A DNA stretch of 63,642 nt, the filler included, from Choristocarpus tenellus KU-1152 (Eukaryota > Protista > Phaeophyceae), in the NCBI GenBank assembly GCA_964200185.2. It is 11 parts of 11 records of this genome, joined end to end, with 100 filler letters (N's around TTAATTAATTAA, not from the genome) between each part and the next. Parts side by side here need not be neighbours in the genome. Positions count along the whole stretch, not along the records: positions 16,054 to 19,836 come from CAXNAD020017948.1; positions 19,937 to 23,103 come from CAXNAD020021824.1; 9 more parts are not named here. One strand, written 5' to 3'. How positions within the stretch are numbered: the stretch's first letter is position 1; each line of letters opens with the position of its first letter. Under the pieces are notes generated by a model. It searched no databases, was not told the DNA's origin, and saw only the letters and a list, made by a program, of their open reading frames with translations. The position numbers were made by a program, and so were the translations under genes. Below, in pieces: positions 8,601 to 34,263 of this stretch.

Positions 8601-11600
8601 CTCGTGCAGGTAACTTTACAAAGCGTGGTGGTGTAAAACGAGTGAGGGTGCTTCAATGATCTGCATTTAACACCTGTCCCATCTGCGTCCGCCACAACTT
8701 CTTTGGTTTATCTTCCTTGTCAAGCCAATGCTTCAAATTTTCCCTCTTTCCTTGGTTGCATCATTCTAACCCTTTCATTGTTGACTGGTGATGCATCCTC
8801 TTCTCCTCTCACTCTTGGGCTTAATTTCCAACGTACACTTGGAAAAAACAACGGAAAAACTCATGCACTCCACCATAATGAACAAGTCTACGGAGAACCT
8901 CCTCATCAGTGCTGCCAATGTTGATCCTTTCCTAGAGGGTCGCAAGCCTTACCACCTCTGGTCCCACGAGCTCCAGCAACATCTGGAGCCCTGGGAGGGC
9001 AAGACTTGCCTGGGGTCGAGAGGAGAGAAGGCCTTGGCCGAATCCATTTCAATAGGGCAAAGGGGAGCATTTGTGTTGTGGGTCAAGGGAGGACATGAGG
9101 TGCGGCAAGAGCGCAAGAGGGTAGTTACAGATATTCTTGGCCTCCTCGTTGCCCCAGAAGGGCAACCTGAGGGTTATTTTATCCAAGGCATTCCTGCTTC
9201 ACCTCCTGTAACCCAGCAGAAGGTTCTAGGTGGAGGAATGGGAACCAGGATAGGGACGAGGGGCAAAGTAAGGTTTCCATCTAAGAACAGGACTGAAGGA
9301 AATGGGGGTAGTCTGGGACTAGGACTAGAGACAGTGGAAGGGACTCGCAGCAACAATGATCCTGTGCATAGAGATGCTAGTACTGCTGAAGATGGACAAG
9401 AGATAATTTTTTATGCAGATGGGTCAGAGCTTGTTGACCAAGAGCTAAAAGAGGGGCATGATTTGGATCCAAAGGGAAGTGGTGCAGACATCGGTCTAAG
9501 GGGGGAATTGAATATCACAACAGGAAGAGATGCTTGGGTAAGTGTGCCCAGGACAGGTGCTATGACCTTGGGAAACACTGACATTTTGCCTAGAAATGGA
9601 CCATCTGAGGGGGGAGAAGGGGTGGAGGTTGGTGGTCTCTGGCCTTCCAGAGACAAGCGTCAACACCAACATGGCTCTCTGAGATTGATTCAGAAAGAAA
9701 ACCCTGTGCCAAAGGTGAAATATTATCATCGACATTGATGACATTCTACGTTGTTTGCTTATATGCTGGAGGGAAGGATTGGCTATGCCAGGAAGAGATT
9801 AAGTATTTACAACTATTGGATAGGAGTTCTTCCTTAACCCCATGTAAATACTACATCTCCCCCTTATGACTTCGGGCATATTTCGTCCACATCACTCTCA
9901 CAGACCCCAATCCCTGCCTATGTTACCTTTTCTCTGCTTACCCCCTCCCCTCCCACCTCAAAAGCTCCCTCAGCGGGTCGAGGGTCCAACAACCTTTGCG
10001 ACTAGGAGGTTGCCATATCACGTCATCCGCAACAAGAGACGACCACGAGCTACTACAGCCCCATCACTCATGGTTTCACCAACAAAGCGTGGCAACCGCA
10101 CAGGAGGCTTCTCCTGCCACAATGACCAGCCCCTTCAGGACTCCAGCAATCCTACCCCTGAGTCGACTGTAATTCATTTGCCACACGAACATGATGAGTC
10201 CAAGTTGAATGCAACGACCCGACCACACACAGCACTGGATTATGCTGTGGCAGATTTCGATGCTGCTCTCCTTGAGCACCGTAGACAGAGAGGTCGTGGG
10301 ACGAGTGTACTGCCCAAACTGGATCTGGAGGAAATGGATTGGAAGTTTGACACCATTGTTTTAAAGGGTGTACCATCAAGGCAGAGTGCTGAGGAAGGAG
10401 AGAGTTTTGTTCGGCTAGAACCACCTGAGGCACTGCCTAAGGCTAAGGCTGGTGTAGATGTAAGTGTGGATCCCAATATATATTTAGCTGATAGAGAGCA
10501 GGCCGATGAAGAAATATCGGGCAAATCATCAGAAGCAGGTGCTCATATCTTCTCCATAGGTGTTTCTTCTGCTGAACAACAAAATGATGGCAAAAGAAAA
10601 TCATTTTCTGCTGTTGGCTCCCCTCCACTTGGCGACATGGGTAGTTTGACATTGCAAAGTAATGAGCTCTCCAACTCACCTCTAGGTTGTGAATCCCACT
10701 GTCTCCTCGAAAATTCCTCTGAATTGTTTCCAAAACAAAGTACTGAGAGCAGAAAATTTGCTACACAACCAGGGTCTGGTCAGGGGGTGTCCAATGCTCC
10801 TTTGCCAGGTTCTTTAGACCAAAGTAAAACCCAAGAGCCAAGCCCAGAACTTAAGCTTAGTATCGTGGGAGGAGAGAGGGGTCTTGAGGAGGGAACAGTC
10901 CCAGAGTCCTTCGTACCCCTGGTAGAAGGGGGTTCTGGCTGGGCATTGGTGGGATCTTCTCTTACAGATAAATGCATCACGGATTCACAGCATCCTACCC
11001 AGTTTCCACTCGCTGTCGACCCTGCCCTTGCCTCCATGAAGGCTATAGAGATTATGTCTACACCTGAGCAGCGGTTTGCCAGAGACTGGATGGCTTCTAC
11101 TGCAGGAGAGAGGGTGTCTGACCCCCTATGTGCTGCAACTGTGGAGGAAAATCTTGGTGCCCGTGTCGGGACACTAGAGGCTCAACTGAACAACAACATC
11201 CTCATGCAAGGGAAAACCCAGCTGGAACCTTTGGATAAGAACGGGAAATTGCATATTGATGAAGAGCAGGGACTAGAAGAGTTGGAGAGAAAAGGTGAAC
11301 TCAATCGATTGCAGGGTGGAGCAGAGTTTGAGGAATGCAATGAGGTAATAGTTGAGGCCACAGCGGTGCTACCCTATGGGGTGGGAAAGGAGGAGGGTCT
11401 GGGAGGGAGTGGAACCTTGACTATTGAAGATGGGAACATAGGTGATAGTGAAGGGTATGAAGGACAGGCTGCTGAGGAAAATTCTCTGCTTGGAGATGGG
11501 CATACCTCTCCACTGGATCCAAAGCTTGCACAAGTACTTGTAACTGTGTCAAAGGTAGCAGTACCCACAAATGTGCCCATTCGGGGCATGCGTCCCCAGC

Positions 11601-14526
11601 AATACAAAGCAGGGGAAGATCTCCCAGTGGCCATCTCCAGACCGTCAGAGGATTTGTCAGTGGACAACGTGATTGCGGAGATGGAAGAGAAGGCGAGGAG
11701 GGCTAAGGAAGTGGGGGTGGCCAAGCTGGAGGACTACATGGCAATGGAGAAGCAGCAGGAGGCGAGAGAGGTCCAGAGGGTGGCCATACTGCTGGAGTAT
11801 AAGTTAGAGGAGCATGACCGGCTCATCATGGAAAAAATGGCACTGAAAATACAGAGGCTTGTTAGGGGGATCCTTGGAAGGGCCAGGGTGCGCAATCTCC
11901 AGGATGGTGCTAGCAAAGTTGCCAAGAAGGTTGGGACATTGATTTTCGAGTTGTGGAGGGGAGGCGCGAGGTGATTTCTGTGGGTGCTTTTTGCTTCTTC
12001 TCGAGTTTCACGAATTGGCAGGAAGGAAAATGAAGGTTTTAAGGGAATGCCTTCAATGGTCGGATCTGTATCTTGCACTATCGCAATCTGTACCATGTGT
12101 TTAGGGTATTGCATGATATTGATTGTGCTAGGTTTTCTCTATAGGTTGGTTGGGATGGGACTAGTTCCATTTAAAACACCTTTATCACCTGGTGGAACCT
12201 GTGTATGTGGTTGGATTGTTGCAGTTACATAAGTAGCCCTAGCCTCTCTCCAAGCTGTAGGACATTTTCTTGGACCATATCATACTAGGAGTGTTTTCCG
12301 TGTTAGAATTCACTCACATGTTAGCGTTTTAGTTTCAGGAAACCCCATATCGTCTCCTGCTCTGATCACCCACCTCTATTGTAATCCCTCTTTGCAGTAC
12401 TTTAACAGGAAATACATACGAGGCAGAGAGTGGTTGGAGGTGGAGAGATGAAGAAGCAATTCCCTCACACTATTGAATATTTCATGTTGGTTTCCTGAAC
12501 ATAATCAAAGAACCAAACCATTACCCATATTATATGTGTGTTCCACTTGAACTTGCTTGCAAGTATGCTATACCTCACCTTCCCTCCCTCCTTGTTCTTC
12601 CTCATTGCCCCCTTCCCAATCAATGTTCTTCTTCTTCTGTTGCAGGAATGGGTTGCTACTAAGATCCAGTCACTCTCTCGGATGCACTCCACGCGTGCTA
12701 AAGTGGCCAGGATACGAAAGCTGCAGCAGGAGGAGCGGGTGGTTGGTGGGAAGGCGAGAGACATACAGCGTGTCTTCCGTGGATTTATTGGTCGCAGAGA
12801 GTACCACATCCGCCTGAGGGACTTCAATATCAGAAAGCTACAAAGGGTTGGAAGAGGTTTTCTAGGCAGGTGATTGCTCTACGTCAAGACCTTGCGGTAA
12901 TCGATTTTGTGCAATTATGTGTGGTTTTGTTAAGAGTGATGGTTATATGTGTGGCTAGTGAATAGATGTGTAGACAGGGTTATGACTACTGGGATAGGCT
13001 CAGTGCTTTGTTTGCTCATAGATAGAATTTTTGCTCACAGATGTGTCTTGGGGCACAATTGCCCAGTATCATCCTTCAATATTCAAAAGGCTAGGTGAAT
13101 TTAATTATGTGGTGCAATAGTGGGAAGGGGGGCGGGAAAGCAGGGCTCACTGCAACAGTACTGGGATGGTATACATTCTACTTTCTTCAAGGGAAAACTA
13201 TAGAGCTTCCTTGATAAACACACATATTGCAGTTGTTGGTGCGTAATTTCTACCAACTGAAACAAGTAGAGTCCATTCGAAGAGGCTGAGGGAGGTGAGT
13301 CTAATGATCCGCCCAGTGTGGTGTTTTGCCTTCAACCAGCCGTACAGGTATGTAGATATCAAGTTCTGCACATGGAGATGTTCCCAGTATGCTGGTTGCA
13401 AGCAATATCCAGCTTCTTCAACCCAAACACATTCTCAACTGTACCACACTTGCTTGACCGCTTTTTTTTTCAGGCGTGTGGCTCTCCGCAAAATCCGACA
13501 ATTAGAAAGAATTGCAGCCCGAGCTTCAGCAGCAACCTCAATCCAATCATTATGGAGGGGAAAAATTGAGAGGGAGGAGTATTTCAAAACCCGAAGCTCT
13601 TCGATAGCCAGTAGAGAAATCCAGAGAGTATTCCGTGGCCATCTGGGGAGGCGAGCTGCTAAACGCAGGAGGGATTGGGAGGCTGCCACCCCCGGGCCTG
13701 AGCGACTAAAGCTTGGACTGAAGATGATTGAGGATACCAAGGTCCGATAATCAGGGAATGAGGGAACTTGTACGGTAATTGCAACTGATGCGTGTCTACG
13801 CTACGCTACGTTGACAGTGAAGCAAGACATAGCAGTGGTGGGACTAGGGATATTGGGACTGGGGTACTAGAGAAGACCTGCAGGATCACCCAAGTTTGTA
13901 GGCACCTTCACTAAGCACTTAATCGACTGATGGTGAACTTGGATTACAACGTCAATCTGAACGAATTTATAGCACTTAGCCTTCAGCACTTCTGGGTAGA
14001 AGATTGAAAGCATCTTAGAGGGTACGAGTTTTTCTCTGTTTGTCCATTTGGGACTTGGATTTCCACAGGTATTTAAGGACAATTTACCTACTCAAAAATG
14101 GTTCGGAGTAGGTAAAGTGTATACGCTATGGAAAGGAGTGTCCAGAACAAGGATATTGACTTCTCCTAACAAAAATGATAGCCAAATTTTATCTAAATAG
14201 CCACATTGGATTTTGGCCCCCAAATGGACGCGGCTCTACCCTCTAAGATACTTTGAGTCAGAAGTTAACCCCACATGGATGATAAATCCTGGTTTGCATT
14301 TGAACTTAGAGTCATGGGCACACCCTGTTGTTTCATTTACATTTTCTGCCCTGTTCTATCATGGCTCGTTTCCCCCTCTTGTCAGATAACCTTTGAGCGG
14401 CAACAGGGGGAAATTGCTGCACTACATCGCGCCCAAGAGAAGGCTGAGGCACGGATATCTTCCATCCATCACCAGCTCAAAATGTCGGAATCAGAACTCG
14501 GAGTACTGGAGAGTGAGCTAGCGCAG
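2698..14526 (+). CDS. Giant multi-exon protein, 3'-partial: dynein-stalk MTBD-like domain + alpha/beta-hydrolase-like domain + IQ motifs + coiled coil
   Basis: GT-AG exons at about 2698-4104, 4436-4795, 5076-5882, 6210-6305, 6530-7107, 7719-7981, 8429-8609, 8887-9713, 9965-11929, 12646-12869, 13474-13741 and 14386-14526. MTBD-like: AQMAINGLTTRDICELRSFVTPPAAVNMVVAALMIVL..SWTTAKRYM..FRPEFVARVSLPASKLCGWI. Hydrolase-like: VVVHDFFD..NIPGQAGT..FHLVGIGNGASVA..KGGHE. IQ motifs include KIQRLVRGILGR, DIQRVFRGFIGR, SIQSLWRG and EIQRVFRGHLGR. Confidence 0.85.
14002..14259. mobile_element. MITE family A (intronic copy)
   Basis: Terminal inverted repeats (TIRs) GATTGAAAGCATCTTAGAGGGTA...TACCCTCTAAGATACTTTGAGTC, with TSD AGAA on both sides. 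Confidence 0.9.
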
Positions 14527-15695
14527 GTGAGAGCTTAATCAGCTGTTCACAAAAATTACTCATTCTTCACAACATACAACTCAGACTGAATGTAAAAAAA
14601 AGACTGGGTCTTTTAACAGCGTAAAAATGCTTTCTGCCATCCGAGATGCTATACAGTGATGCGTCTTTACATTTTTTGGAAGAAGCATCTCTCATTGGCT
14701 GATAAGCCAATGCTGCTCTCTTGTTGAGCTTACTCTTCAAACCAAAAAATATGGCCAGCACACCTTGTTCAGCTAGAATTCGACATGAGAATATAAGGAG
14801 GCAGTACCACTGACTCATTGACCAATGAATGGCAATTATTCACCCAAATTCTACAATTGGATCGCAGATCTTGTTTCCTCCCCCCCTGCCCCCCCTAGTT
14901 AAGACCTGGTCTATATGCTGCAGCCACGGTCCCAAGTTTCACCTCTACAACCTCAAGAATATTACATGCTCTGAGTATGGTTCAACCCAAAATTTATCCA
15001 ATGCAGAGGGTTTTGTTGGGCATTTCCGAGGGTCCTATTTACTAGTTACTTGCATGTAGCTCTCAAAAAAGGACTACAGTGGTAGATTTTGTTGGGGTTC
15101 TGTAAGTTATTGGCTGGGATGTCAATCTTAGCCTACCTTCAATATGAATCTAGATTGAGCAAGACTTTCTCTTGATGAACAGATGCAATAAGTAGTCAAG
15201 ATCTGAGGTCAAAATTCGACTTTCGGTTATGTAACAAGTTCTGCTTAATGATGTAAAAATATTTCTTGTGTGGGTTCAGATTCTCTTGCACAATCTTAAC
15301 TGAACCCAACCTATGTTCAAGAAAACTAGTGAGATACAAACAACGAATGCAAGTGATATAAACCTTGATCAATGTGGAGTTACAAACCACCAAGGATTAA
15401 TGTAAGGTATGTCTAACTTGCTGAACTGTTTTTCTACATTTTCTAGGTAAAATATTCACAATGCCAGCATGATGGTATCACTTGGGGCATGATGTACAAA
15501 TGCAATTATTGTACACCATATCTTTGAACCACCCACTAACTTCACCTTGCTGTCAACATACTGTGGGCCGTAGTATACTAGAGGGGAGCATGTTTAGCCC
15601 AGGTTGTCCATTGGGGGCTTGATGAGTTGTTGCAGGATACCCCAATTCGATAACTGTTTTTCGGGTGATCTTCCTTCGAATTTGGTTCAGGCAAA

Positions 15696-15953
15696 GAGTC
15701 AAGGTATCTTAGACGGTAGAGCCGCATCCATTTTGGGGGCCAAAATTCAATGTTGCGATTTTGATGAAATTGATGAAATTGATGAAATTTGGACTATCGT
15801 GTTTGTTAGGAAGTGTCAGTATCCATGTTCCGGACACACCTTTTCATAACGTATACTTTTCACCTGCTCCGAAACATTTTGGAGTAGGAAAATGTCATTT
15901 AAAGAAAACATGGGACGCCAAGCCACAAACGGACAAAGGCTCAAAGTATCTGG
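15696..15953. mobile_element. MITE family A interrupted at 15938 by the end of a family B MITE (contig end)
   Basis: Begins GAGTCAAGGTATCTTAGACGGTAG with family A internal sequence, then GGCTCAAAGTATCTGG. Confidence 0.85.
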
Positions 15954-16053: not shown

Positions 16054-16119
16054 CAACACAGGGGGCGGCGCAGGCGACAAAAGCCACCCCCTTGCTGTGG
16101 GAGCAACTGTCATGGTGTT

Positions 16120-17060
16120 TTCGGGCAACAGGCGGTCTTGGGCAGTGAGAAGGTCTAGGAGTGAATTGTATTCGAAACCGGGTGTACGATGTTTGAGTTT
16201 GAAGAGACCTGTTGAACCAAAATAAAATCCGTGTTCTGGAAAACGCGTTTATTCTCGCTGTGATGAAATAAAAACTAGATTCTAATCTGGTCTCAGGCAA
16301 CAGTCGGTCTTGGGCACAATAGAATTGAATTCGAAGCCGGGCGTATGAACGATGTTTGAGCCTCGGGCGATCCGTCGGACCACCCTGAGATTCATGATCC
16401 GGAAAATACGTGCATCATGGTTTTTAGAAATTAAAAATTCGATTATATTCGTAATTTCAATTTAAAAAAATACAAAGCACATACTTAATTGATCTTGTAC
16501 GTTTCCAATGCTCCGAAACCAAAAGGTAAAAAAAACTGACACCCTCTAATTGTTTTAAGTACAAAATCTTATATTGTTCGACATTTGTGTTTTTAGAAAA
16601 GCGGTTTTTGAGTTTCGGGCGATCCGTCGGACCACCCGAAACCCTTGAACAGCAAAACACGTGCATTAGGGTTTTTAGAAATTGTAAATCCGATTATATC
16701 CGTACTTAAATTAAAAAAAAATACAAAGCACATACATTATTGGTCTTAAATGTTTCCAATGTTCTGAAACTAAAAGGTCACAAAAAACTGGTACCCTACA
16801 ATTTTTTTAAGCTTTTGGATTTTCGGGCGATCCGTCGGACCACCCGAAACCCTTGAACCGCAAAACACGTGCATTAGGGTTTTTATGAAATAAAAATAAT
16901 ATTATATTCTTAATATCAACAAATACAAATACAAACCACATACTTCGTTGATCTAATACGTTTGAAAAGTTCCGAAACGAAAAGGTCACAAAAAACTGAT
17001 ACTCTCTATCTGTGTTAAATATGAAATCGTATACTGTTTGATGTTCGTATTTTTTAGAAC
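16120..17060 (+). repeat. Tandem repeat array (three ~210-250 bp units, each starting with an imperfect palindrome) upstream of ParB-like ORF A
   Basis: TCGGGCGATCCGTCGGACCACCC occurs at ~16363, ~16615 and ~16823, each followed by AAAA(T/C)ACGTGCAT... A second shorter duplication lies at ~16122 and ~16296. Confidence 0.9.
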
Positions 17061-17227
17061 ACAATTATCAATGGAAAGAGAAATCTGGGTTCTTTGGGCA
17101 CCAACCGACCAGATGAAATAAAGCAGCACCTCCCAGCCCTCACTCCTCATTTCCATTCCTTCCCTTCCACACATACCACCAGCAGCTCTTTTTTATCTAT
17201 CCCCGTCACACCTTCCCAGTTGTCTCC

Positions 17228-17674
17228 ATGTCCAACATTCACTCAACAACGACCCCCCTGCGCGCCGATGGCACTGCCCACGGATCGAGAGCGTCGGACA
17301 GCAATGTCAAGGGCATGTCCTCGCTCCTTGAACATCACTACCTCGGCATGTACAAGATGAAACTCGGCAGCATCACATGCATGGAAATGGTGCGTCCACT
17401 GAGCGAGCGTGGCCTTGCGCGCGCCAGCAAGTCTATCTGTGAAAAAGACTGGCTCGAGCAGTTTGCTCTGTCCATTGTCATCCAACGAGACTGCTTAGGC
17501 AACGGGGACCAGCTCACAGCCGACAATGCGCTTGCCGTTCAAGGACGAACACTGGATGGAAACCATAGAATAACGGTGTTGAAGAGAGAGTTTGATCACA
17601 AACGCGCTTTCATGATGCGGGTCTACATGGAGTTCAACCAAGCAGAAGAGAGGCTAATTGTCAATGGTGGGTGA
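17228..17674 (+). CDS. ParB/Sulfiredoxin-like N-terminal domain protein (copy A; probably exon 1)
   Basis: VRPLSERGL..SI..W...SIVI...LDGNHR matches the ParB/Srx pattern (R..L..SI...G, then DGxHR). Identity to 21273-21719 is ~62% by hand alignment. Likely GTGGGT donor before the apparent stop. Confidence 0.75.
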   Translation: MSNIHSTTTPLRADGTAHGSRASDSNVKGMSSLLEHHYLGMYKMKLGSITCMEMVRPLSERGLARASKSICEKDWLEQFALSIVIQRDCLGNGDQLTADNALAVQGRTLDGNHRITVLKREFDHKRAFMMRVYMEFNQAEERLIVNGG

Positions 17675-18059
17675 TGGAGTGCTGTCGTTGTTCCATGATC
17701 GCCTGACTCTTCTGATCAACTAAGCAACAAAATAAGTTGAGTGTTGTCATTGTTCCATGATCGCCTGATGACTCTTCTGATCTATCAAGTTGTTGCCGTG
17801 TTTCCTTTGTTTGGTTCATCGTCAGTCAGCCCGTTGTTGATCTTTTTGTTGTTGATCTTTTTGTTGTTGATCTTTTTATCCCTCGTGGTCTTTCTGTCAG
17901 CAGCAACATGTTGCTCACTACTGCCTGCCGCGTGTGTTCTTCGACCGCTTCCCACCTATCCTTTGCCCCGTTCGCCCACTGCACCACCACGCTTATAGCA
18001 TTCAATGAAGTCATGTACACGACGATCAAACGAAATCATTTCCACCCCACACACTGTCC

Positions 18060-19777
18060 TACTACCACCTTCGTTGGGATGGATTCCCATTCGTATCAGG
18101 GTCCTTCAAAAGCGCCGCAACATTTAGAAAAAAAACATATGGGCACTTTTCGTGCACCATTTGGGTCAAACTCATCCTCCATACAATGCTCCATCCTCAA
18201 TTTTGGTGATCGACTGTTCCCAGTAGAAGTAAAAGGGGAATGCTATTTTTAGGTTTCATGTTGTTAATGGATGATGATTGATTGCCCCAGAACCTCATGC
18301 TTGAAAACTCAACGCTCAGAACCAAGGGGGGGGGAAGTAGGCCTAGAGAAAATCTGGTGATGGTGCCTCCAATAAGACTCAAACATGTTCATAGATGCAT
18401 GAAGGTTGGAGCTAAGCACTTATTGGATGCCTGAAATACTGCTGAGGTTGAACCAGTCACAGCCCGTCAAACAAAATTGGCCTTGATTACCAGCCATGTG
18501 TAACAGTGCCTGGTGAGCTTAACTTCCCTTTTTTCCTTTTCTTCTTTGGACCCGGAAAGGAGATCAGGTTCCTTTGCCTAACCTATTATACTCTTCTTGG
18601 TGTTGATGATTGTAGGTTGTATCTAGTGGATGAAAGGAATTAACCTAGATGCCCCGATGTGGATATGGATATGTGCCCCTTCTTGAACCAATTTTGGTCC
18701 TTGATGCTGGATCTGATATTTTATTTGAGCTTTCTTTCTGCTTGCTATTTTCTTATCTGTGTGGACTTGATTGACTGATGGTTATGCCTTCTTTAGCCTT
18801 TCTTTCTATGTATTTTCTTCTTTGTGTGGACTTGACTGATGAACCTACTATTTTTGGGGCACATACTGTAGGTCCTACATCTTTCCCCCCCTCTCTATTG
18901 CATTGCCTTTCTGACCAAGGTTTCGAGTATGCTGGATGTTGCTACCTTGACCTCGACAATATCTGCCAATTATTTTTCTTTATTTCGAGTATCACTTCAC
19001 ATACTTCAAAATAATGTGTGATAATTAATCAACCAAGCGTACAATACGATAATCGAACTTGTGTATGAGAACGTAATCAACACGGAGGTACACCTTGTCC
19101 CCCTGTTTCTCCATACACATGCGGGGGACCGTGTCCCCCTGGGGACAAAAAAAAGTGTTTACAAGTGAAACCCTGTTAATCTCTGCAAACATCAACAGGT
19201 GCTTGCCATTGATACTCAAGACACCATTGCCACATATATGCTCCAATTACCCTTCTGTTGAGATGCCCCCTCCCCCTGTCTGTCCTTCCAGCGCAGATGT
19301 TTGAGTCCATTAGTCTTCTTTTTTCCTTGGGGATTTGCTGCACCACAGTGTCCAACTTCTCCCGGAAAGCATATCTGATTATCTTTGTGTTTTTCTGTTG
19401 GGGTGTATCCTACAACAAAGGAAACCCTCCTGGTTGAACTCCTGTTATCAGTAAGTGAACCTTCATCATTCACTCACCGAAGTATGAAGAATTATACTTT
19501 ATGGGCGGCCTGTTTTAGGACCGACTTCCTTCACTGGCAGTCCAACTCCATAGTTGCCTCTGTTGTAGTCATCTCTAATGAAAATTGTGATGTAGTTCAG
19601 CTCGGACCGTTCAAGGCCAGCTTTTCTACCTTGTCCACTCTCCTGGAGCCCAATCACATTACACCCCAAAGCCCTAGCCCGCCTCATCAGTACTACCACA
19701 TTCTCACCTCGTTTTTGCCATTCGTTGCATTCGTTAAAATTTTTCAATTGGTTGTTTAGAATGTCATACTTTTTCAT
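18060..19777 (-). mobile_element. Degenerate LINE (APE endonuclease and start of RT, RTE-like)
   Basis: Frameshifted motifs CNVIGLQES..GVG, SFVVGYTPTE and NGKHLLMFAEINRVSLVNTFF..RVDYVL. KAKEPD resembles KAPGPD (~18570). Confidence 0.75.
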
Positions 19778-20288
19778 TTTTTTTCGCCTTGCTTGACCTC
19801 TACCGCACGAGACCCAAAGTATCCGGAAGGGGGGGGNNNNNNNNNNNNNNNNNNNNNNNNNNNNNNNNNNNNNNNNNNNNTTAATTAATTAANNNNNNNN
19901 NNNNNNNNNNNNNNNNNNNNNNNNNNNNNNNNNNNNATGTAGTACAGAGGGCAAGTGGCTGCCACGTGCAAGTAGAGCTCTGCGCCCGGCCCACACACCT
20001 CTATTCCAGGCGAAAGCTTGCCCTTGAGCTGTCTGTTGTTGGCCACATGAAGTAGACGAATGCACTGTTCTTCTTGGTCTTCAGGAGAGATCGAACTGAA
20101 GGCCTCTGATCGAGAGTTGCACACTTCGAGATCACCCCACACAGGGAGGTCATTTCCGCCGACTTTGTAGTCTTTCCCTTCAAGCGGGAACAAGGCCATT
20201 TCCGCCGGATTCGAGGACAAGCTTGCACGCGGCTGAATATTTTGGAAGACAAAGACATCGGTGGGGTTGGGTGGGGTCGAGGGATGTT

Positions 20289-20342
<54 letters not shown>

Positions 20343-21272
20343 AGTACGGCGATTCATGAATGTTCGTGATTTGGAGGTAATATCGTCCGAAGAAGGTGGT
20401 GCAAAAGCGGCAACCTTATTGTGGCAAAAAGTCGAACACACTAACGATGCAGTACTTACCTGTAAGGCCCATATTTTTGTACACGACGTATTTAGGTGCC
20501 GCATTAGGTAGGTTAGGACTCGGGAATAAAAAAAATAGTCTTTTCTGCGTTCTGGTAACTAAACTCTGCCGTTCGATCTTCACAAAATACGTAAGTTAGC
20601 GCATTCTATACCACATTCACCTCGATCTGGTAGCCGAATTCCGTCGCCACCGTCTTCACAACGAAAATGGTCGCCTCATCGCGTCCCATTGCCTTTCCCT
20701 GAGGATGGACGGCCTCAGCAAAACATCGCTGCGTCTCCGTTAGGACGAGGGTCTGCCCCAAGGCTTCCGGCAGGCAGGAAGGGTCTATCACACGTTCTCG
20801 AAAAAGAGACGTGGATATCTGGAACATCATGTGCGTACATGTGATCGCCCAACAATGTGGCAGTGAAGTGGGTTAGCCATGCCATAAGGTTTTGTCACAT
20901 ACGTATGGGTTATTCTGGCGTTGGTTAAAAATGTTGTGGTGCACTGCAGCACGTTTGTTTTTTGTTCGTGCGGGGAAGGAGGACATTATGACGGGACAAG
21001 GGTTAGGTGGGGAGCGATTGCGGGACACATGCGGTCTGCGGCACCAAGAAACATGTTGCTGTGGACAGGAATATCACGAAGGATAAAAAAGATGAGCAAC
21101 AAAAAGATCCACAATGGGCTGACTGACAATGAACATAGCAAGGAAACTCAGCAACAACTTCGTATATCAGAATAGTCATCAGGCGATCACAGAATAACGA
21201 AAACACTCAACTTACTTCGGTGCTTAGTTGATCAGAACGGTCAGGCGATTATGGAACCACGAAAACACTCCA

Positions 21273-21719
21273 TCACCCACCGTTGGCAGTTAGACTCTCT
21301 TCTGCTTGGTTGAAGTCCATGTAGATCCGCATGGTGAAAGCGTGCTTGGGATCAAACACTCTCTTCAGCACCATAACTCTATGGTTTCCGTCCAATAAAT
21401 GCCCTTCAATGGCAAGCACAGTTTCGGCGTTGAGCTGATCCACATTACCTAAACATTCTCGCTGGATGACAACACTTGGAGCAAACTGATCCAGCCAGCC
21501 TTTCTCCTTTATAGACTTCTTCACGTGCGCAAGGCCACGCTCGCTTAAAGGACGCACCATATCTGTGCATGTGACGTGAACGAGTTTCATCTTGTACGAG
21601 CCAAGATAGTGTTGGTCTAATAGCTGGGATATGCCCTTCGGGGGTAGGTCCCGCGTTCTGGTTTCCAAACTTTTCCCGTTGGCGAGCGGGTGGATTGTTG
21701 TTCTTGGAATGTTGGACAT
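21273..21719 (-). CDS. ParB/Sulfiredoxin-like N-terminal domain protein (copy B; probably exon 1)
   Basis: VRPLSERGLAHVKKSIKEKGWLDQFAPSVVI...LLDGNHR. Same 148-codon length as copy A with no indels, and homologous flanks. Confidence 0.75.
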   Translation of the reverse strand: MSNIPRTTIHPLANGKSLETRTRDLPPKGISQLLDQHYLGSYKMKLVHVTCTDMVRPLSERGLAHVKKSIKEKGWLDQFAPSVVIQRECLGNVDQLNAETVLAIEGHLLDGNHRVMVLKRVFDPKHAFTMRIYMDFNQAEESLTANGG

Positions 21720-21779
21720 GGCAAAGATTGGGAGGGTGTGATGGGGATGGATAAGTAAGAGGTCTGCGTGGTATCTACG

Positions 21780-22715
21780 GAAGGGAATGAATTGAAATGA
21801 GGACTGAGGGATGGGAGGTGCTGTTTTATGTCGTCTGGTCTGTCGATCCTCAAAACTCAGATTTCACATTTTTTATGAAAATTGAGTTACAAAAATACGA
21901 ATATCAAACAGCATAAGATTTCATATTGAATTGGGACAGAGGGTGTCTGTATTTTTGTGACCTTTTCGTTTCGTACGTTCCGAACGTATTAGATCAATGA
22001 AGGATGCGGTTTCTATCTATATTTGTTGGTGTAAAGATTAGAATATCATTCTACTTTTGGAAAAACCCTAACGCATGTGTTCTGAGTGTTCAACGTATCT
22101 ACTGAAGGGAATGGATTGAAATGAGGACTGAGGGATGGGAGGTGCTGTTTTATGTCGTCTGGTCTGTCAATCCTCAAAACTCAGATTTCACATTTTTTAT
22201 GAGAATTGCGTTACAAAAATACGAATATCAAACAGCATAGGATTTCATATTGAACCGGGACAGAGAGTGTCTGTATTTTTGTAAACTTTTCGTTTCGTAC
22301 GTTTCGAACGTATTAGATCAATGAAGGATGTGGTTTGTATCTGTATTTGTTGGTGTAAAGATTAGAATATCATTCTACTTTTGGAAGAACCCTAACGCAC
22401 GAGTTCTGAATGTTCAACGGTAAACAAGATTACCGGTAACCGCGAATAGCATAGATCCGCTTTTTTATGTTATCTAGTGTTTATTTAAACCCTAAAGACG
22501 CCAAAAAGTGAAATTAGGGTTTATTTAAATAGTGGGTACCAGTTGGAAGGACTTCTTAGGTTTTCTGAAAGTTGGAAACGTGTGAGACCCCTAAAGTGCG
22601 TTCTTGGTATTTAAAAAAAAACTAAGCACGGTTTTCAGTGGATTTAGTATTTTTTTAAACCCTAACGGACGTGTAAAGTAGCATAACCCTTAATCGTGGT
22701 TTGTGGTAACCACTA
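21780..22715 (-). repeat. Tandem repeats upstream of ParB-like ORF B (~320-bp duplication plus a diverged unit)
   Basis: 21780-22100 is repeated at 22104-22420, with a diverged third unit reaching ~22715. The reverse complement is homologous to the 16.3-17.1 kb units. Confidence 0.85.
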
Positions 22716-22768
22716 TCTCGTAAAGAGTCACTTCTTATCGACTTGTACGTTTATGACAATCGCTATGT

Positions 22769-23033
22769 GCGTCAAGTATCTTAGAGGTTAGGGTCGAGTC
22801 TGTTTGTTGTCTGTTTGGGGCAAAATCCAATGTTGCGATTTTGATTAAATTTTGGCTGTTGTGTATGTTAGGAAGTGTCAATATCCTTGTTCCATACACA
22901 CCTTTTCATAAAATAAATATTTCACCTACTCTAAAATATTTCGGAGTAGGAAAATATATTTTAAAAAAACGTGGGAAGCCAAGCCCCAAACGGACAAACG
23001 GCAAAAATCGTACCCTCTAAGATACTTTCACTC
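22769..23033. mobile_element. MITE family A
   Basis: TIR ending TACCCTCTAAGATACTTTCACTC, TSD ATGT. Confidence 0.9.
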
Positions 23034-23212
23034 ATGTCCGATTCGGTAAGATTTTGTTCTTCAAATATGTAGAGAGTTGGGGTTGTTTTTTGACGTTTTG
23101 GTTNNNNNNNNNNNNNNNNNNNNNNNNNNNNNNNNNNNNNNNNNNNNTTAATTAATTAANNNNNNNNNNNNNNNNNNNNNNNNNNNNNNNNNNNNNNNNN
23201 NNNATTGGATAT

Positions 23213-23608
23213 TGGCAGAAAGCTGAGGGGGTGGGGTGGGAGTATCAAGTCAGCTGTCCATTAGGGGCCCATTTTTGAATGTTGCGATTTTGGGGTGATT
23301 TGGTTGCATATGTTGGATGGATAATGTAAGTTCACTTCTCCTGGTCAGGGCCTGACTGGACATCCTGGTGTAGACTCTCCCCCCCCCTCCCACAGATACT
23401 TTGAGCTCAAAGTTCGTACTTTCTTTCAAAGGCGTATAGGATATTTTCTGAATTGTGTCGAAAAGCTTCGAACACTAAAGAAATGAACGCTCTCAAGTCA
23501 AACTCACTTCATCCATAGAAATATATGGGTGAATTGCCAAAGATTAAAAAACTGACTTCTCGTGGAAAACTGTAAAAAATCCTGAGTACATCTTGTTTAC
23601 TTCGGCTC
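23213..23608. mobile_element. Family B MITE abutting a partial family C MITE
   Basis: CCCACAGATACTTTGAGC ends at ~23406. 23430-23608 is homologous to 32272-32512. Confidence 0.7.
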
Positions 23609-25149: not shown

Positions 25150-27331
25150 CATGAAGTAGTGAACAATTATAAGGTGATTAAATAGACCAGGTAGTGTAAC
25201 TGTGGAGAGAGCCTGGACCATATATTTTGGGTTGTGTGTTGGATCTTGAGTGAAGAGCAATCAGTGGTGGTGTGAACAGCATCAAGTGATATGTGCTGCA
25301 AGAAATATCAAGCAATACAAATAAAACTCAGGCAGGGGGGGAGGGGTTGCTGACAGGTACATCATGTGGACCATGTTTGAGTAGGGACTCTGGCGACACA
25401 GGAAACATAAAAAAATCTATCGAAAGTTTTTATTACATTCGTTAGCTAATCCCTCTTCAAGACAAGGCAATAGAACTAGAAGTGTTGGCTACTCTGCAGG
25501 CTATACTGAGCACTACTAAATGCATTATCGTTTTTGATTTGGGGTTTCTGTTATTTAGGGTAGATTTGTGTGTCAGTGATCACCCTTCTCCATTTTTATG
25601 TATTATGTATGTGACATTACACAATCACTCTCTTGTTCACTTGTTGCCACACCGCAAAACTGACTAGTGCTTGCACCCTGTTGTGCTTGCCTACTTGAAC
25701 ACACAGTTCGAATTATGGCAGCTTCTGGCGGTTCCTCGACTTCCCCAGTGATTTCAAAGAAGATGAAGAGGGACCAGGGCAACACAGCACAAAATAGCAA
25801 AGATGTAGACACAACCTAATCCTACTAAACAGCAACTTACATGTAAGTTTGATATTGTTTGTCTGAGTAACCTCCACTAAGAGGTTGAAATCCGTCATGA
25901 TGACGTGAGATTTCGAGAGAGAATGATCTTTTATGATATCCAAAGAGTTTATAGTAATAGTAATACTGTACAAAGTGTGCTGGGTGGTAGACACCATAAG
26001 CTGGTAGGCACTCAGAGAGGAGCAGAGGGCGGGGGTTGGGAGAGAGACGTTTTTTGAAGATTTTCGCGGCTGATACCTAGAGCTCTACAGTTTTTATGTT
26101 TCGATTATTTTGAAGTACAACGGAAGTACCTGCTGTACGAATTCGGTGCCAACATTGTAATCTGGAGTAGATCGTTGGTGTCCTGTTCTGTAGTGCTGGT
26201 AATATGTCATCTCTTGTAGATGAAGACATTGGGGAGTCTGGCACGATTTTTCTGTACATACATCAAGCTTCTTCTAGATCGTAAGCAAGTGATGAAGTGT
26301 TTGGTAGGGGCTTTCTGCCTGTGGTGACACAGGACTCACAGTGTGCGATGTTTAATCCTGAGAGATGGAGTGGCAGTGCGCACCTCAAACGTTTTTGTAG
26401 CCTATGTAAGAGCTGGTATAAACATGTTATGTCCATGTATAGTCCGGGTATTTGGCAAACAGGATTGACGATGTAAGGGTTTTTGTGGTGTGACTTTGTT
26501 TTGTGTGCACTTATATCATTGTATACTCTGGGGTGCATACACAAATAGTTTGTGATATATATGCGTGTGTATGTGCAGATACATACAGTTGTCACGCATA
26601 AATATTGCGTATGAAGACCAGAAGTAGTGGTGTATGCTGTAGTTCAAGTGTTTCAACGTTTTCACGATGACAGGGAGATACCCATTTCCTATCTTTGATG
26701 AATGTGAATTACGCTTGTACTTTAGTCTGTGCTCCGCATGAGAAATTCTGGCATATATTTTGTTGTCGCCTAGGCAATTGGGTAGCAAACTAGTTACGGT
26801 AGAACAATTGCCTGTTGCTGTAGCGAAGGAAGTCTTCATCTGAGGTACGACTTGGATTTTCTTACTCACCTAAGCGAGTTTTACTACCACCTACCTGTGG
26901 AAATGACAATAAGCAACTACACCATACCTTGCGGCAAACAACCCTCAGCCAATAATGGGTGGGAAAACAGAGAGGACAGCAAGCGAGAGGAAGGCAGGGG
27001 AAGCAACAGTGGTGAAAGCAATGCTTGATTGAATGTACTTCTTGTTGCCCTAGGAACTGGAACTGATAATCGTAGGTAGTGCTGCCGATACACTATAGGC
27101 ACCACCACTCACTGGTGGTGTAGTAGTGGGTAATGGGAGATGGATGTTAATTACGTATTAGTAACTACTGAGTCAAAGTATCGGAGGGGGGGNNNNNNNN
27201 NNNNNNNNNNNNNNNNNNNNNNNNNNNNNNNNNNNNTTAATTAATTAANNNNNNNNNNNNNNNNNNNNNNNNNNNNNNNNNNNNNNNNNNNNGGTGTCCA
27301 CCTGATGTCCTCTGTGTTGGTCATCCTCACA

Positions 27332-27507
27332 GGCTCAAAGTATCTGGGGGGGGGGGGGGTCTACACCAGAGTGTCATTCCAGCCCTGACCAGGAAATGTT
27401 CACTTACATGATCCATCTGATGCATGCAACCAAATCACCAAAAAATCGTGATATGGAAAAATTGGACGTGAATGGACAGCCTTTACACACCCCAGGTACT
27501 TTGAGCC
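27332..27507. mobile_element. MITE family B (poly-G/poly-C subterminal tracts)
   Basis: GGCTCAAAGTATCTGGG...CCCAGGTACTTTGAGCC, TSD ACA. Confidence 0.9.
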
Positions 27508-28082
27508 ACATCTTCCTTCAGTTGCTGGATAAAATGAAAGGATCCCAGGTCGTTGACATTGAGGTCAGGTGAGTTGACTGACTGGGTCTCTATGACAATG
27601 CCATCCCTGCCGCCTCCTCAATTACCTCCATGATCCCCCCATGTTGTGTGGCTCTACCCTGTCGTTGTACACCAAAATGGTCCAACCTAGGCATGCAGAC
27701 CTTGATCGTCAGGATGGCATCCTCTATCATGAGCTTATTTTAACTCTCCCCGTCCACAGTGACTGGCAAAAGAGCCTTGATGCCCTTGGGACGATGTTTG
27801 CTGGAGTGCTGAGCAACCATACTGTCCACAATAGCTCAAATCCCGATTTTCCCATCGAACCACACCCTGTTGGAGAGCTTCCTAAGGCAGGTCACAGCCG
27901 CAAGGAACATCACCTTCATAATGTAATGCTTAAATTGTGCCGGTGGGAGGTTAGGGGTGTCCTCAGTGGGGTGCAGGTACACACCTCACCCATCTTCAAG
28001 GATATAAACCACTTCTTGTCCACATGCACCCAGTCATACAGATCGTCCAAAAATACCCTACTTACCCCCCTCCTGTGCGTGT

Positions 28083-28303
28083 GAGTGACAGTATCTTAGA
28101 GGGTATGAATTTGCCCTGTTTGTCCATTTGTGAATTGGCCTCCCAAGGGGTTTTAATGACATTTTATCTTACGTAAAGGTGTGTCTGGAACAAGGATATC
28201 AAAGCATCCTAACAAACATGGTAGCCAAAAATTTAATCAAAATTGCAACTTTGGATTTGACCCCCAAATAGACCCGGCTCTACCCTCTAAGATGTTTTGA
28301 CTC
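28083..28303. mobile_element. MITE family A (internally deleted), inserted in the mariner remnant
   Basis: GAGTGACAGTATCTTAGAGGGTA...TACCCTCTAAGATGTTTTGACTC. Confidence 0.85.
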
Positions 28304-29564
28304 TCTGACTGATGATGAAACCCACCCTTGATGACTTTCTGCTGGACTGAGAGGACTGGCTTAATCCACTGCTTGACCTTCTCGACCTTCTCCTCTTGCA
28401 CAGATCCCACAACGAAGAAAGGGAGATCACAGCTTTGGTCGCTTATATGTGGAAGGATATTAGGTGTACCGATGGGACATCCCAAACGTTGAGGATACTT
28501 GTACGGCAGCCACATCACCCCTTGTGATGCCGTATAAGGTCCATAAATTCACCCGTTGCAATTTGGCTATCATGCACCTTCAGATGAGCGAACACGGTGA
28601 TTGGGGAAGTTCCGAAGTTCTTCATGATGGCTGGCGCTTTCCCCCAGGGCATCCGAGTCTCCTGCCCCCATGTCTCCAGGCATGATGCCACCCCTCTGTT
28701 CTTCGTTGGAGTGTTTGAGTCCTGACCCCAGAAAGACTCTGGGCCGAAGAATTGGGACCAACGGGCGGCAACAGGATGAGCAAGCCACTCAATTGACGGG
28801 AGGCCTTCATCCTAGGCATCCCAATAAACACCAGCTTTGACAGTTTCATGAGGTTATTGAACTCCGTCAAATGCAACTAGGTCGACTTTGCACTGGTGAT
28901 TCTACACAATCATGACAGCCCACCATCTCACACTTTGCATGCCTCCCAATCTATATGAGGACTATGCCCCGTCCGTAGGGTTTACTATGTGGATCGTTTA
29001 CAGGCAAGAATGGAGCTTGCAAGAGTTATGTTACATTGAATTCCGAACAAAGGAAATATGTATTATCTGTCAACTTTTAATTGTGTTGCAACAGTAAGTT
29101 TCATACTCAGGACATATATCTTCTATTTATCTAATTTTTTCTACAGGTGCTCACAGATATGACAACATTTAGAACCCCAGACAGCCATTTTGCCACCAAA
29201 TTCTTCGTCTAGCTGTACAAATGCAGTGTGGTTGATTAATAAATATGTACGTTCTAAAGTGTATAGGTAGGGTCATATATATATATATATATGCTTGTAG
29301 ATGGTGTGTAAAGGTATACATATATATGCTAGTAGGTGGTGTGTAATCATACGTCACAGAACTCCTTGGAAGCTAAATCTGTACCACAAAGAATTTTCAA
29401 TACAAATTTGCTGAATTGGAACTTCAGCTTACATTTGTCTTGCTATATTTCTTATTGGCACACACAAAGAAGGGCCTACTGGCAGGGGGGTGTATTTTCC
29501 ACACATCAACAACCACAAGAATATACCCCACCAAGAGACCACCATCGTCTCTCCCTCACCTCAC

Positions 29565-32500: not shown

Positions 32501-34263
32501 TTACTTCAACTCAGTGCACTGTTGTGACACATCACTGGGGAGACAATAGTACATGCATAATGACCCAAAGCAATTAAGAGGGTAGACGTTTTGCCCTGTT
32601 TGTCTGTTCAAGGCTTGGCTTCCCACGAGTTTTTATGACCTTTTTCGATTTTCTGCGTGAACACTGTTACCTACTCCGACACATTTTGGAGTATGGCTAT
32701 GAAAGGTGTGTCTGGAGCAAGGGTATTGAGTGAAAGTATCTTTGAGGGTACGAGACTTCCCCTGTTTATCCGTTTGGGACTTGGCTTCCTGTGGGTTTTT
32801 TTAATGATATGTCCTCCTCCAAAGTGTTTCGGAGTAGGTAAAATGTATACGTTATGAAAAGGTGAGTCCAGAACAAGGATACTGACACTTCCTAACAAAC
32901 ACGATAACCAAAATTATATCAAAATCGCAACATTGGATTTTGCCCCCCAAATGGACGCGACCCTACCCTCTAAGATACTTTGGCTCATTGACACTTGCTA
33001 ACAAACACGATAGCCAAAATCCATGAAAATCGCAACATTGGATTCATGTCCCCGAACGGACGTGGCCCTACCCTCTTCAATGCTTAATCTCAATTATCGA
33101 CACAGAAACTATATCAGGTGTTGCCTGTATGAAGAAGAGCTGTAAAAAGTTACATGTTGTTTGGTGCCGCTGACTGTCACTATAACAATACCATGCCGAG
33201 ATTATAGAGGTGTCTTGTTCGAGAAATACTCCAAAGTAGACCTATAGCACAAAGAAAAAAATACGATGCAGTGAAGCAACTGGTCCAGTAAAATGTTGCA
33301 CTGTATACAGCACAAAGTATCATTGACAGTTTGCTTGATGCATCTCCTCTTCTAATGTCTCGGCCCAACCTCTACACTATCCTCTTTGTCTCACTTGGCT
33401 GTTGCGAAACGCACTAATCCGTTCCTGTACAGGTGCACCGTCATAGGGTGCAGGGATGTAACTAAGACATACCTGCCAGACATTCAGTGACAACACAATG
33501 AGGTGGAAGAGAGAAGTGATGGGGTCTCCAAAAGCAGGAGCATGCAGGTGGAATGATGAGAAAGTAACGGGCAACAAGGGGTTAATTTGCACCTCAGGTT
33601 GGTCAGGAGCTGGACCAAGGCTTGAGGTTGTACCAGGAGTTGAGGGCGTAGTGTGAAATGACCTGAGAGAATGTTCATCATTGCCTGCTTTCTCAACTTG
33701 TTCCTCTGCACCTAGTAACTAGCATGTACAGATGAATTGTTGCATTGTATTTTCCATGATGCATTCCTTACTCTGCTCAGGTTTTTGCTCTTGATGCTTT
33801 TTCTTCTGTTATCCCTTGGGAGTGGAAATGTCTCCTCTACGAACAATAGATCCTCTAGTGTTTATCATTAGCGGTGTGAAGTGGACGGTTGTTTGACAGG
33901 AACATGGATGCACCTACTATGATGGATTCAAAGCACTTTTGCAGCCTTGAACCTTACACCCACCTCTGGCCTCAACCAATGCTCTTTTCTCATGCGAACT
34001 ACACAATTGCATTAATGTTCCCACCATAGCCCACTCCTTAAACACACACCATTGCCACTTATACTTCAACCCTCAATCTATCCCACCTAAGCAGCACTAA
34101 TCCCACTCACAGTCTGAGGTCAGCCTTGTACCCACCAAGAGTCAAGGGCGGCTCGATGTACCTCTGAATGATGGACTGTTGGTCATACGCAAGTTCACTG
34201 AGGTCCTTCATGAGGAATATCTTACGACCCCTAGAAGAGTCGTGAGGCTTCACTATCCACAAG
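29565..34263 (-). CDS. Tubulin-tyrosine ligase-like (TTLL, TTLL2-like polyglutamylase type), internal exons
   Basis: Phase-compatible exons: 34111-34263 ([28 protein letters not shown]), 33395-33472 ([16 protein letters not shown]), 30793-30930 ([15 protein letters not shown]) and 29565-29927 ([22 protein letters not shown]). Confidence 0.92.
32272..32512. mobile_element. MITE family C
   Basis: TIR GAGTCAAAGTAAATGAGAGGTACCCAG ... CTGGGTACCCCTCATTTACTTCAACTC. Confidence 0.85.
32562..33091. mobile_element. Nested MITE family A: younger copy (32728-32986) inside an older copy
   Basis: Outer TSD AAT, inner TSD ATT. Removing the inner copy restores the consensus-like CAAGGGTATTGACACTT. Confidence 0.9.

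What the first reader, a model, noticed from the sequence alone, without database searches (positions are those of the whole stretch)
16054..22715. Dispersed eukaryotic element encoding a ParB/Srx-like domain downstream of palindromic tandem repeats (two divergent copies)
Seen in the sequence: two separate contigs (16054-~18040 on +, ~20900-22715 on -) carry the same cassette. It consists of AT-rich tandem repeats, a pyrimidine-rich leader, a 148-codon ORF and a conserved 3' non-coding segment. The ORFs are collinear without indels, ~62% identical by hand count, with mostly conservative changes and invariant VRPLSERGL and LDGNHR. Established: DGxHR/GxxR is the nucleotide-binding signature of the ParB/Sulfiredoxin fold, which includes bacterial CTP-clamp ParB proteins that load on palindromic parS sites. 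The Srx FxGCHR catalytic Cys is absent here, so this is not sulfiredoxin. Inference: this is a multicopy mobile or selfish element family (unclassified transposon, or viral/plasmid-derived and intron-containing) that uses a ParB-like NTPase/nuclease. No transposase is visible in the assembled parts.
Basis: partly seen in the sequence, partly recalled or inferred. Interest (0 to 1): 0.88.

Follow-up and report, generated by a model that had tools for sequence, protein, structure and literature searches.

The report
Broken ParB gene in algal transposon
These are two diverged copies of a highly repeated DNA element, likely a transposon of a brown seaweed, each carrying what is likely only the first exon of a gene predicted to make a bacterial-type ParB DNA-binding protein that would bind the element's own repeats; this kind of gene was already reported in seaweed transposons in 2025.

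Summary
The two collinear 148-codon ORFs are 62% identical (92 of 148; dN/dS 0.49) and the predicted structure has the ParB/Srx fold (VIA Z 9.6). The ORF is very likely not a whole gene but exon 1 of a spliced gene found across brown algae. The 'conserved 3' segment' is the intron. Copy A keeps only 12 bases of exon 2 before a deletion junction to a ~207 bp terminal segment ending CTGTT at 18218, where read depth falls to single-copy level. Spliced relatives fold like ParB/Noc/KorB (N-domain plus helical DNA-binding domain), and one 843-aa relative adds a degenerate N4C/N6A-methylase-like domain. This matches the ParB-methyltransferase accessory gene of the Ectocarpus transposon Sola1-1_Ec32 (termini AACCG-CGGTT). 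It also parallels red-algal PAG3, which lies beside inverted-repeat arrays. The palindrome is above chance in copy A only. Verdict: a non-autonomous, probably dead remnant and a new member of a recently described, biochemically untested kind. Sola1 is likely but not shown (no transposase, no target-site duplication). Self-binding and CTP clamping are inferred.

The parts
16054..18218 (+). Copy A: internally deleted, high-copy element; right end at 18218, left end lies beyond the contig start
   Evidence: Summed contig depth 6,750-72,500 over 16054-18212 vs 18-460 over 18340-19836 in run X1; 15 contigs of run X3 leave the stretch at 18218 into unlike flanks (agreement 0.42); contigs run on past 16054
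16116..17060 (+). Array of degenerate 160-250 bp AT-rich tandem units upstream of the gene
   Evidence: families D1, D7, D9
16612..16642 (.). 31-bp imperfect palindrome; its 23-bp core recurs exactly at 16363, 16615 and 16823; candidate parS-like site (inferred)
   Evidence: (5 of 500 shuffles)
17100..17227 (+). Pyrimidine-rich leader, conserved in copy B
17228..17666 (+). Exon 1 of copy A: ParB/Srx N-terminal domain (read-through stop at 17672-17674)
17667..17998 (+). Phase-1 intron, 332 bp, GT...AG with pyrimidine tract (splicing inferred, no RNA seen)
17999..18010 (+). 12-base stub of exon 2 (reads AFNE in the spliced frame); broken at 18010/18012
   Evidence: a loose end behind 18010 in run X2 (2 contigs) continues in frame as ATESVV, as in spliced relative P0004
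18012..18218 (+). Terminal segment (long terminal inverted repeat, inferred) ending CTGTT
   Evidence: In other copies it is preceded by other sequence (10 and 6 contigs, loose ends before 18012), and an inverted piece of it is joined to the array at 16479 (7 and 4 contigs) (compared); a junction beginning exactly AACAG (1 contig)
21281..21719 (-). Exon 1 of copy B (read-through stop at 21275-21273)
20991..21280 (-). Intron of copy B, 81% identical to A; similarity stops before the acceptor and no exon 2 was found
21771..22419 (-). 324-bp tandem duplication of leader plus one array unit (94% alike)
22380..22770 (-). Further array units of copy B, ~70% alike to A units
22774..23034 (.). Unrelated ~260-bp inverted-repeat element inserted in B's array
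23047..23103 (-). Copy B array resumes up to the contig end

Best explanation
Both loci are diverged copies of a highly repeated element, likely non-autonomous remnants of a giant cut-and-paste DNA transposon of a brown alga (probably Sola1-type), and each keeps what is likely only the first exon of an accessory gene whose product is predicted to have a ParB fold. How it most likely works: (1, shown by structure prediction) exon 1 gives the ParB/Srx nucleotide-binding domain. (2, shown for relatives) The spliced gene continues into a ParB-like helical DNA-binding domain, and in at least one relative into a DNA-methylase-like domain. (3, inferred) The intact protein, made by a full-length copy elsewhere in the genome, would bind the repeat array beside its own gene, perhaps load as a CTP-gated clamp, and mark or shield the element against host silencing or help transposition. 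(4, inferred) Copy A lost everything between exon 2 and the terminal 207 bp. It could move only by a transposase supplied in trans, and neither copy here can make the full protein.
For: Fold: every Foldseek row shown is ParB/Srx-family (best E 1.2e-3); VIA Z 9.6, rmsd 2.5 A over 93 residues to PadC. Family: 90 relatives at E<=0.001. 9 of the 30 looked up carry a source name, and all 9 are brown algae. Intron: 57 of 75 aligned proteins show G/S/C/R then E/K at the ORF's end, the read-through signature of a phase-1 donor. Splicing A at 17666/17999 continues in frame with AFNE, as in P0004. A loose end at 18010 reads ATESVV. Architecture: the model of spliced relative P0031 matches Noc/ParB/KorB over ~250 columns (17 hits E<=0.001, best 7.1e-6; Z 9.7 over 185 residues to KorB). 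P0080 residues 560-843 are nearest to N6_N4_Mtase clusters (0.92; 10 of the 10 best named hits). Mobility: sharp depth drop and unlike flanks at 18218; one 231-bp contig at depth 538 vs 17.6 for the flank. The terminus reads AACAG/CTGTT vs AACCG-CGGTT for Sola1-1_Ec32, the element reported to carry a ParB-methyltransferase gene. dN/dS 0.49, bootstrap 0.30-0.76.
Against: No transposase, left end or target-site duplication lies in these contigs. The Sola1-1_Ec32 protein could not be compared, because the .fa supplements were unreadable. The terminus match is 5 bases with one mismatch, and two KDZ families end in GACTG and have tandem repeats in their termini, which also fits 18212-18216. No Pfam or PDB sequence match to ParB; the first Foldseek search had no row at E<=0.001. 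The methylase assignment rests on one relative that is only 30% identical in the ParB part, on Atlas features alone (Pfam and PDB gave none), and its catalytic motifs look degenerate by eye. The palindrome is not shared by copy B. Of the ParB ENxQRE motif only the Asn is kept. The read evidence comes from 4 runs of 1 study, possibly including the source sample, and depth is not a copy number.
Confidence: 0.75

Rival explanations
1. Same accessory gene, but carried by a KDZ (Zisupton-like) or another giant DNA transposon rather than Sola1; such accessory genes are reported to hop between transposon families.
For: KDZ-5_Ec32 and KDZ-N1_Ec32 end in GACTG and have tandem repeats in their termini; the window reads GACTG at 18212-18216. 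Red-algal PAG2/PAG3 occur in Plavaka, Mutator and Zisupton elements.
Against: Flanks diverge behind 18218, not 18216, and one junction begins exactly at AACAG. Among the 83 'termini' places of the Ectocarpus table, Sola1-1 is the only terminal-inverted-repeat element with AAC.. ends; one Helitron is listed with a possible AACA start.
Confidence: 0.15
2. The 148-codon ORF is a complete, working stand-alone ParB/Srx NTPase or nuclease of a small selfish element.
For: Both ORFs are open, indel-free and under weak purifying selection; the domain folds on its own (pLDDT 85.7).
Against: The ORF ends two codons into a conserved intron, and copy A keeps the acceptor and the start of exon 2. Other copies continue into exon 2. 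Spliced relatives are up to 876 aa.
Confidence: 0.04
3. The cassette is a relic of an endogenous giant virus or plasmid integrated in the algal genome.
For: ParB-like genes are common in plasmids and phages; an Atlas neighbour cluster (DUF6551, 0.92) is mostly viral.
Against: 0 of 30 pattern matches in viral contigs and 0 of 344 in metagenome contigs were relatives (searches of limited reach). The gene has a conserved spliceosomal intron and a sharp terminus with many flanks.
Confidence: 0.03
4. A domesticated host gene family rather than a mobile element.
For: Relatives persist across several brown-algal genera; dN/dS below 1.
Against: Coding and non-coding parts are equally alike between copies (74% vs 77-81%); hundreds-fold depth excess and varied flanks; one relative's cluster has 45 members, and the 15 listed lie on contigs of 36 kb to 1.6 Mb.
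Confidence: 0.03

Closest known systems
Sola1-1_Ec32 accessory ParB-DNA methyltransferase gene (Ectocarpus; PMC12477816, passages and supplement table rows seen)
   Same: Brown-algal DNA transposon carrying a gene with a ParB-like domain; in relative P0080 a C-terminal N4C/N6A-methylase-like domain; similar terminus (AACAG/CTGTT vs AACCG-CGGTT) and a long terminal repeat (at least ~160 bp here vs 282 bp).
   Different: Here only exon 1, an intron and 12 bases of exon 2 remain; no methylase, no transposase; ~2.2 kb seen vs 21.5 kb. Sequence homology to that very protein was not testable.
PAG3 of red-algal Plavaka/Mutator/Zisupton elements (bioRxiv 2025.02.11.637652, passages seen)
   Same: N-terminal ParB-like domain undetected by InterPro, gene next to tandem arrays of inverted repeats, proposed to bind its own transposon.
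   Different: PAG3 ends in a 2OG-oxygenase-like domain; red algae; no red-algal name among the 9 named relatives looked up here.
Bacterial ParB/Noc/KorB CTP clamps
   Same: Fold of the N-domain; spliced relative matches N-domain plus DNA-binding domain; GxxRxxA largely kept (G 75/75, R 70/75, A 51/75).
   Different: 10-18% identity in the Foldseek rows; ENxQRE reduced to its Asn; both window copies have Val in place of the motif's Ala; no ParA partner; intron-containing eukaryotic gene.
Sulfiredoxin / SerK / SbnI (ParB/Srx fold enzymes)
   Same: Same core fold, Z 7.3-8.8, tied with ParB for exon 1 alone.
   Different: [quoted passage not shown]

Membership tests
ParB/Srx superfamily | ParB/Srx fold | tested here: met
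   Z 9.6, rmsd 2.5 A, 93 residues; the eight rows with Z>=5 are all of this fold
ParB/Srx superfamily | GxxR nucleotide-binding motif | tested here: met
   G111 75/75, R114 70/75
ParB-type CTP clamp | GxxRxxA and EN(I/L)QRE motifs (as stated in PMC11229316) | tested here: inconclusive
   A117 in 51/75 (Val in both window copies); at the likely second motif only the Asn is invariant in 9 of 9 spliced rows; the correspondence was made by eye
ParB-type CTP clamp | Helical DNA-binding domain after the N-domain | tested here: inconclusive
   Present in the model of spliced relative P0031 (Z 4.2 to the isolated KorB DNA-binding domain is weak); not encoded in either window copy
ParB-type CTP clamp | CTP binding/hydrolysis and loading on a palindromic site | not testable with these tools
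   needs biochemistry
   0 of 75 have Cys at that column
Transposon ParB-methyltransferase accessory genes (Sola1-1_Ec32 type) | ParB-like domain fused to an N4C/N6A methylase domain | tested here: inconclusive
   Seen only in relative P0080 by Atlas features; absent from the window copies
Transposon ParB-methyltransferase accessory genes (Sola1-1_Ec32 type) | Located inside a multicopy DNA element with a defined terminus | tested here: met
   (copy A); copy B's own ends could not be examined
Sola1 DNA transposons | Terminal inverted repeats with Sola1-1-like terminal motif | tested here: inconclusive
   AACAG/CTGTT vs AACCG/CGGTT; an inverted copy of the terminal segment joined to the array in other copies; left end not in the window
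Sola1 DNA transposons | 4-bp target-site duplication | not testable with these tools
   left flank is off the contig; no genome held
Sola1 DNA transposons | Sola1 DDE transposase | not testable with these tools
   no Pfam match beyond one 9-residue E+ motif hit (E 0.05) in 7 neighbouring frames; full-length copies not available
KDZ transposons | 8-bp target-site duplication and KDZ transposase | not testable with these tools
   as above; the terminal position favours 18218 over the GACTG end at 18216

The most novel reading that the evidence does not exclude
Brown-algal transposons run a bacterial-style ParB/parS system in the eukaryotic nucleus. The accessory protein loads as a CTP-gated sliding clamp at subfamily-specific palindromes in the element's own repeat array and spreads along the element, carrying a methylase-fold domain. 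In a host lineage with little 5mC it would mark or shield only its own family, with site and protein diverging together (copy A and copy B carry different motifs at the same place in the unit).
Probability: 0.25. Interest if true: 0.8.

Novelty: new member of a known kind. Interest (0 to 1): 0.35.

Why it matters
The locus itself is a dead or non-autonomous remnant. The kind it belongs to is young in print. The Ectocarpus paper gives it a few sentences, and both it and the red-algal preprint only propose self-binding and self-modification; the passages I saw report no biochemical test. This work adds that the gene family is wide in brown algae (90 representatives at 50% clustering, invisible to Pfam), has a conserved first intron, models as ParB N-domain plus DNA-binding domain, and sits beside a repeat array with a candidate palindrome. 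That makes the self-binding idea directly testable. If the clamp mechanism held, it would be a eukaryotic ParB CTP switch and a transposon anti-silencing device. A search for 'ParB' + 'CTP' + 'eukaryotic transposon' gave 0 papers, which is a narrow search.

Tried and rejected
No genome held, so no genome-wide copy count or consensus. Pfam and PDB sequence searches gave no ParB match for the ORFs, the 90 relatives or two profiles. Word-indexed protein searches for longer relatives found none and only P0080 itself; the tool calls this weak evidence. No relatives in viral or metagenome contigs. No RNA holder listed, so expression is untested. tblastn of 92 family proteins found no exon 2 or methylase exon elsewhere in the window (best outside hit E 0.001, a chance match in a host exon). 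An 88-codon frame at 20609-20872 (-) looked methylase-like by eye but matched nothing and is left unexplained. I tested whether the AACAG motifs at 16127 and 16299 are the left end: not significant (132 and 28 of 500 shuffles; local 268 of 500). I also considered GGGGG at 16061 as a KDZ-type left end, but contigs run on past 16054 and no target-site duplication fits. The 11-base terminal motif recurs at 16299 with one mismatch, but also once elsewhere by chance (3 matches, 3 of 100 shuffles), so it is weak. Read depth and ends for copy B could not be obtained. P0059 (3420 aa, 0 matched stretches) was dropped as spurious. Earlier findings: three look-ups returned nothing. No complex prediction was run.
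Full report
1. What is there. The window is a chain of contigs joined by N-linker-N spacers. Two separate contigs carry the cassette: 16853-17971 (+) aligns with 22093-20991 (-) at 76.5% over 1125 columns. The ORFs are 17228-17674 and 21719-21273, 148 codons each, no indel, 92 of 148 residues identical. Flanks are as alike as the ORF (5' 284 of 370, ORF 330 of 444, 3' 232 of 285 columns), so the whole block is one diverged repeat. dN/dS is 0.49 (bootstrap 0.30-0.76; 0.42 for residues 29-148), i.e. weak purifying selection, as expected for selection in active ancestors followed by drift (inference).

2. The fold. Pfam and PDB sequence searches gave no ParB match. The Atlas pointed to clusters with ParB_N (11% of members), DUF3723 and DUF6551. 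A full phmmer scan gave 90 relatives at E<=0.001, none with a Pfam ParB match at E<=0.05 apart from weak GmrSD_N, DndB and DUF6551 rows. With 75 of these proteins aligned (the two window ORFs and 73 of the 90, fragments and one spurious hit left out), AlphaFold gave pLDDT 85.7. All Foldseek rows shown are ParB, Noc, KorB, PadC, sulfiredoxin, SerK, SbnI and kin, though none reached E<=0.001 (best 1.2e-3). The independent aligner gave Z 9.6, rmsd 2.5 A over 93 residues to PadC, and all eight rows with Z>=5 are of this fold. The ParB/Srx assignment is therefore met. No aligned protein has the sulfiredoxin Cys.

3. The ORF is exon 1. Of 30 relatives looked up, 9 carry a source name, all brown algae (Choristocarpus, Sphacelaria, Cladosiphon, Pylaiella, Ectocarpus), so the window is likely brown-algal. 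In 57 of 75 aligned proteins the conserved block ends in G/S/C/R followed by E/K, which is what read-through into a phase-1 GTGAG/GTAAG donor gives (inference from the code). Properly spliced relatives instead continue with a conserved Asn and Asp (9 of 9 rows). In copy A the donor at 17666/17667 and an acceptor after a pyrimidine tract at 17998/17999 give a 332-bp intron, and the frame continues AFNE as in the closest relative P0004. Twelve bases into exon 2 the similarity ends. Contigs of public runs that leave the window at 18010 continue in frame as ATESVV (2 contigs, run X2), exactly the next residues of P0004, so other copies keep exon 2. Copy B's similarity to A stops at 20991, before the acceptor, and no exon 2 was found in either contig. 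No RNA was seen, so splicing is inferred.

4. It is a mobile repeat with a sharp end. In run X1 summed contig depth is 6,750-72,500 from 16054 to 18212 and 18-460 from 18340 on. A 1645-bp flank contig with one difference has depth 17.6, while one 231-bp contig over the intron has 538. The tool warns that summed depth is no copy number; the single-contig ratio implies some tens of near-identical copies at least (inference). The 4 runs come from 1 study and may include the source sample. Fifteen contigs leave at 18218 into unlike sequence; the end reads CTGTT, and one junction elsewhere begins exactly AACAG with the same terminal sequence. The segment 18012-18218 is normally preceded by other sequence (10 and 6 contigs), so copy A has a deletion junction at 18010/18012. 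An inverted piece of this segment (18058-18088) is joined to the upstream array at 16479 in 7 and 4 contigs (compared). Terminal segment and array therefore belong to one element with long terminal inverted repeats (inference). The left end of copy A is off the contig. Copy B's ends could not be examined with reads.

5. The repeats. Copy A has three 206-bp units at spacings of 251 and 208, plus two more degenerate ones. A 31-bp imperfect palindrome scores above chance in the unit (5 of 500 shuffles), and its 23-bp core is exact in all three units. Copy B has related units (about 70%) but no palindrome above chance (308 and 290 of 500). Two B units show a short GGTTACC-centred motif at the equivalent place, which is suggestive only. 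Perfect palindromes are not enriched in either array.

6. The intact gene. A model of spliced relative P0031 (44-row alignment, pLDDT 81.9) matches Noc, ParB and KorB over about 250 columns (17 hits at E<=0.001; Z 9.7 over 185 residues to KorB), i.e. N-domain plus helical DNA-binding domain. The longest relative, P0080 (843 aa, Cladosiphon), ends in a region whose nearest Atlas clusters are N6_N4_Mtase (0.92). Pfam and PDB gave no such match, the tool notes that its calibration was not made for parts of proteins, and the catalytic motifs (recalled) look degenerate by eye. ParB CTP use depends on GxxRxxA and EN(I/L)QRE (PMC11229316, passages). The family keeps G 75/75, R 70/75, A 51/75 and only the Asn of the second motif, so nucleotide binding is plausible and CTPase activity uncertain.

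7. Comparison with what is known. PMC12477816 (passages; supplement list; rows of supplement 1) reports that the 21.5-kb Sola1-1_Ec32 carries a 1104-aa protein with a ParB-like domain and an N4C/N6A methyltransferase domain, proposed to bind and modify its own element. Its termini are AACCG-CGGTT, with 282-bp imperfect inverted repeats and 4-bp duplications. The two .fa supplements that hold the sequences could not be read, so direct homology is untested. The Bostrychia preprint (10.1101/2025.02.11.637652; passages; supplements not seen) reports PAG3, a ParB-like plus oxygenase protein next to tandem arrays of inverted repeats. PMC4738411 (passages) notes ParB-HTH-methylase fusions in chlorophytes and chytrids. 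PMC3845634 (passages) gives AWWT targets for insect Sola1. The 2011 review cited by the Ectocarpus paper was not read. It works like, and probably is, a transposon ParB accessory gene. Membership of Sola1 is likely (about 0.6) but untested for transposase and target-site duplication, and KDZ remains possible because two KDZ families end in GACTG.

8. Mechanism and verdict. Shown: fold, repeat status, terminus, exon-2 stub and deletion junction in A. Inferred: splicing; mobilisation in trans; binding of the intact protein to the array (about 0.45); CTP clamping (about 0.25); self-marking. The two copies here cannot encode the full protein. New member of a known kind; interest 0.35.

Noticed in passing
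window 14002-14261, 15692-15937, 22774-23034, 28082-28303, 32727-32989, 35266-35524, 48358-48617, 49633-49890, 61794-62052: At least nine copies of a ~260-bp element with terminal inverted repeats (MITE-like), 71-88% alike; one is inserted in copy B's array.
   Followed up: partly
window 23253-23406, 27329-27510, 35030-35213, 60841-60920, 34864-34920: A second short dispersed repeat family, 76-90% alike.
   Followed up: no
window 56855-60788 (+): Gypsy-like LTR retrotransposon pol (protease, RT, integrase, chromodomain-like motifs by eye), broken into several frames.
   Followed up: no
window 43746-45146 (+), 46403-47128 (-), 47115-47618 (-): Two Copia-like integrase/RT remnants on opposite strands, by eye.
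   Followed up: no
window 2602-13750 (+): Large multi-exon host gene with long exons, an alpha/beta-hydrolase-like stretch and IQ-like motifs, by eye.
   Followed up: no
window 29561-29998 (-): Exon with a tubulin-tyrosine-ligase-like motif (recalled).
   Followed up: no
window 20609-20872 (-) and 20340-20600: An 88-codon open frame and a perfect splice donor near 20460 downstream of copy B; no family match. Could be a later exon of the element or unrelated.
   Followed up: partly
window 16666, 16874, 22071, 22395, 22495, 22665: Each array unit of both copies carries a TTAGGG hexamer (telomere-like, recalled) at a fixed place; it is better conserved between A and B than the palindrome.
   Followed up: no
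window 18537-18705: Short repeat in the flank after copy A (depth bump, matched by other long contigs at ~85%).
   Followed up: no
window 45539-45727: 39/78-bp tandem repeat next to the Copia-like remnant.
   Followed up: no
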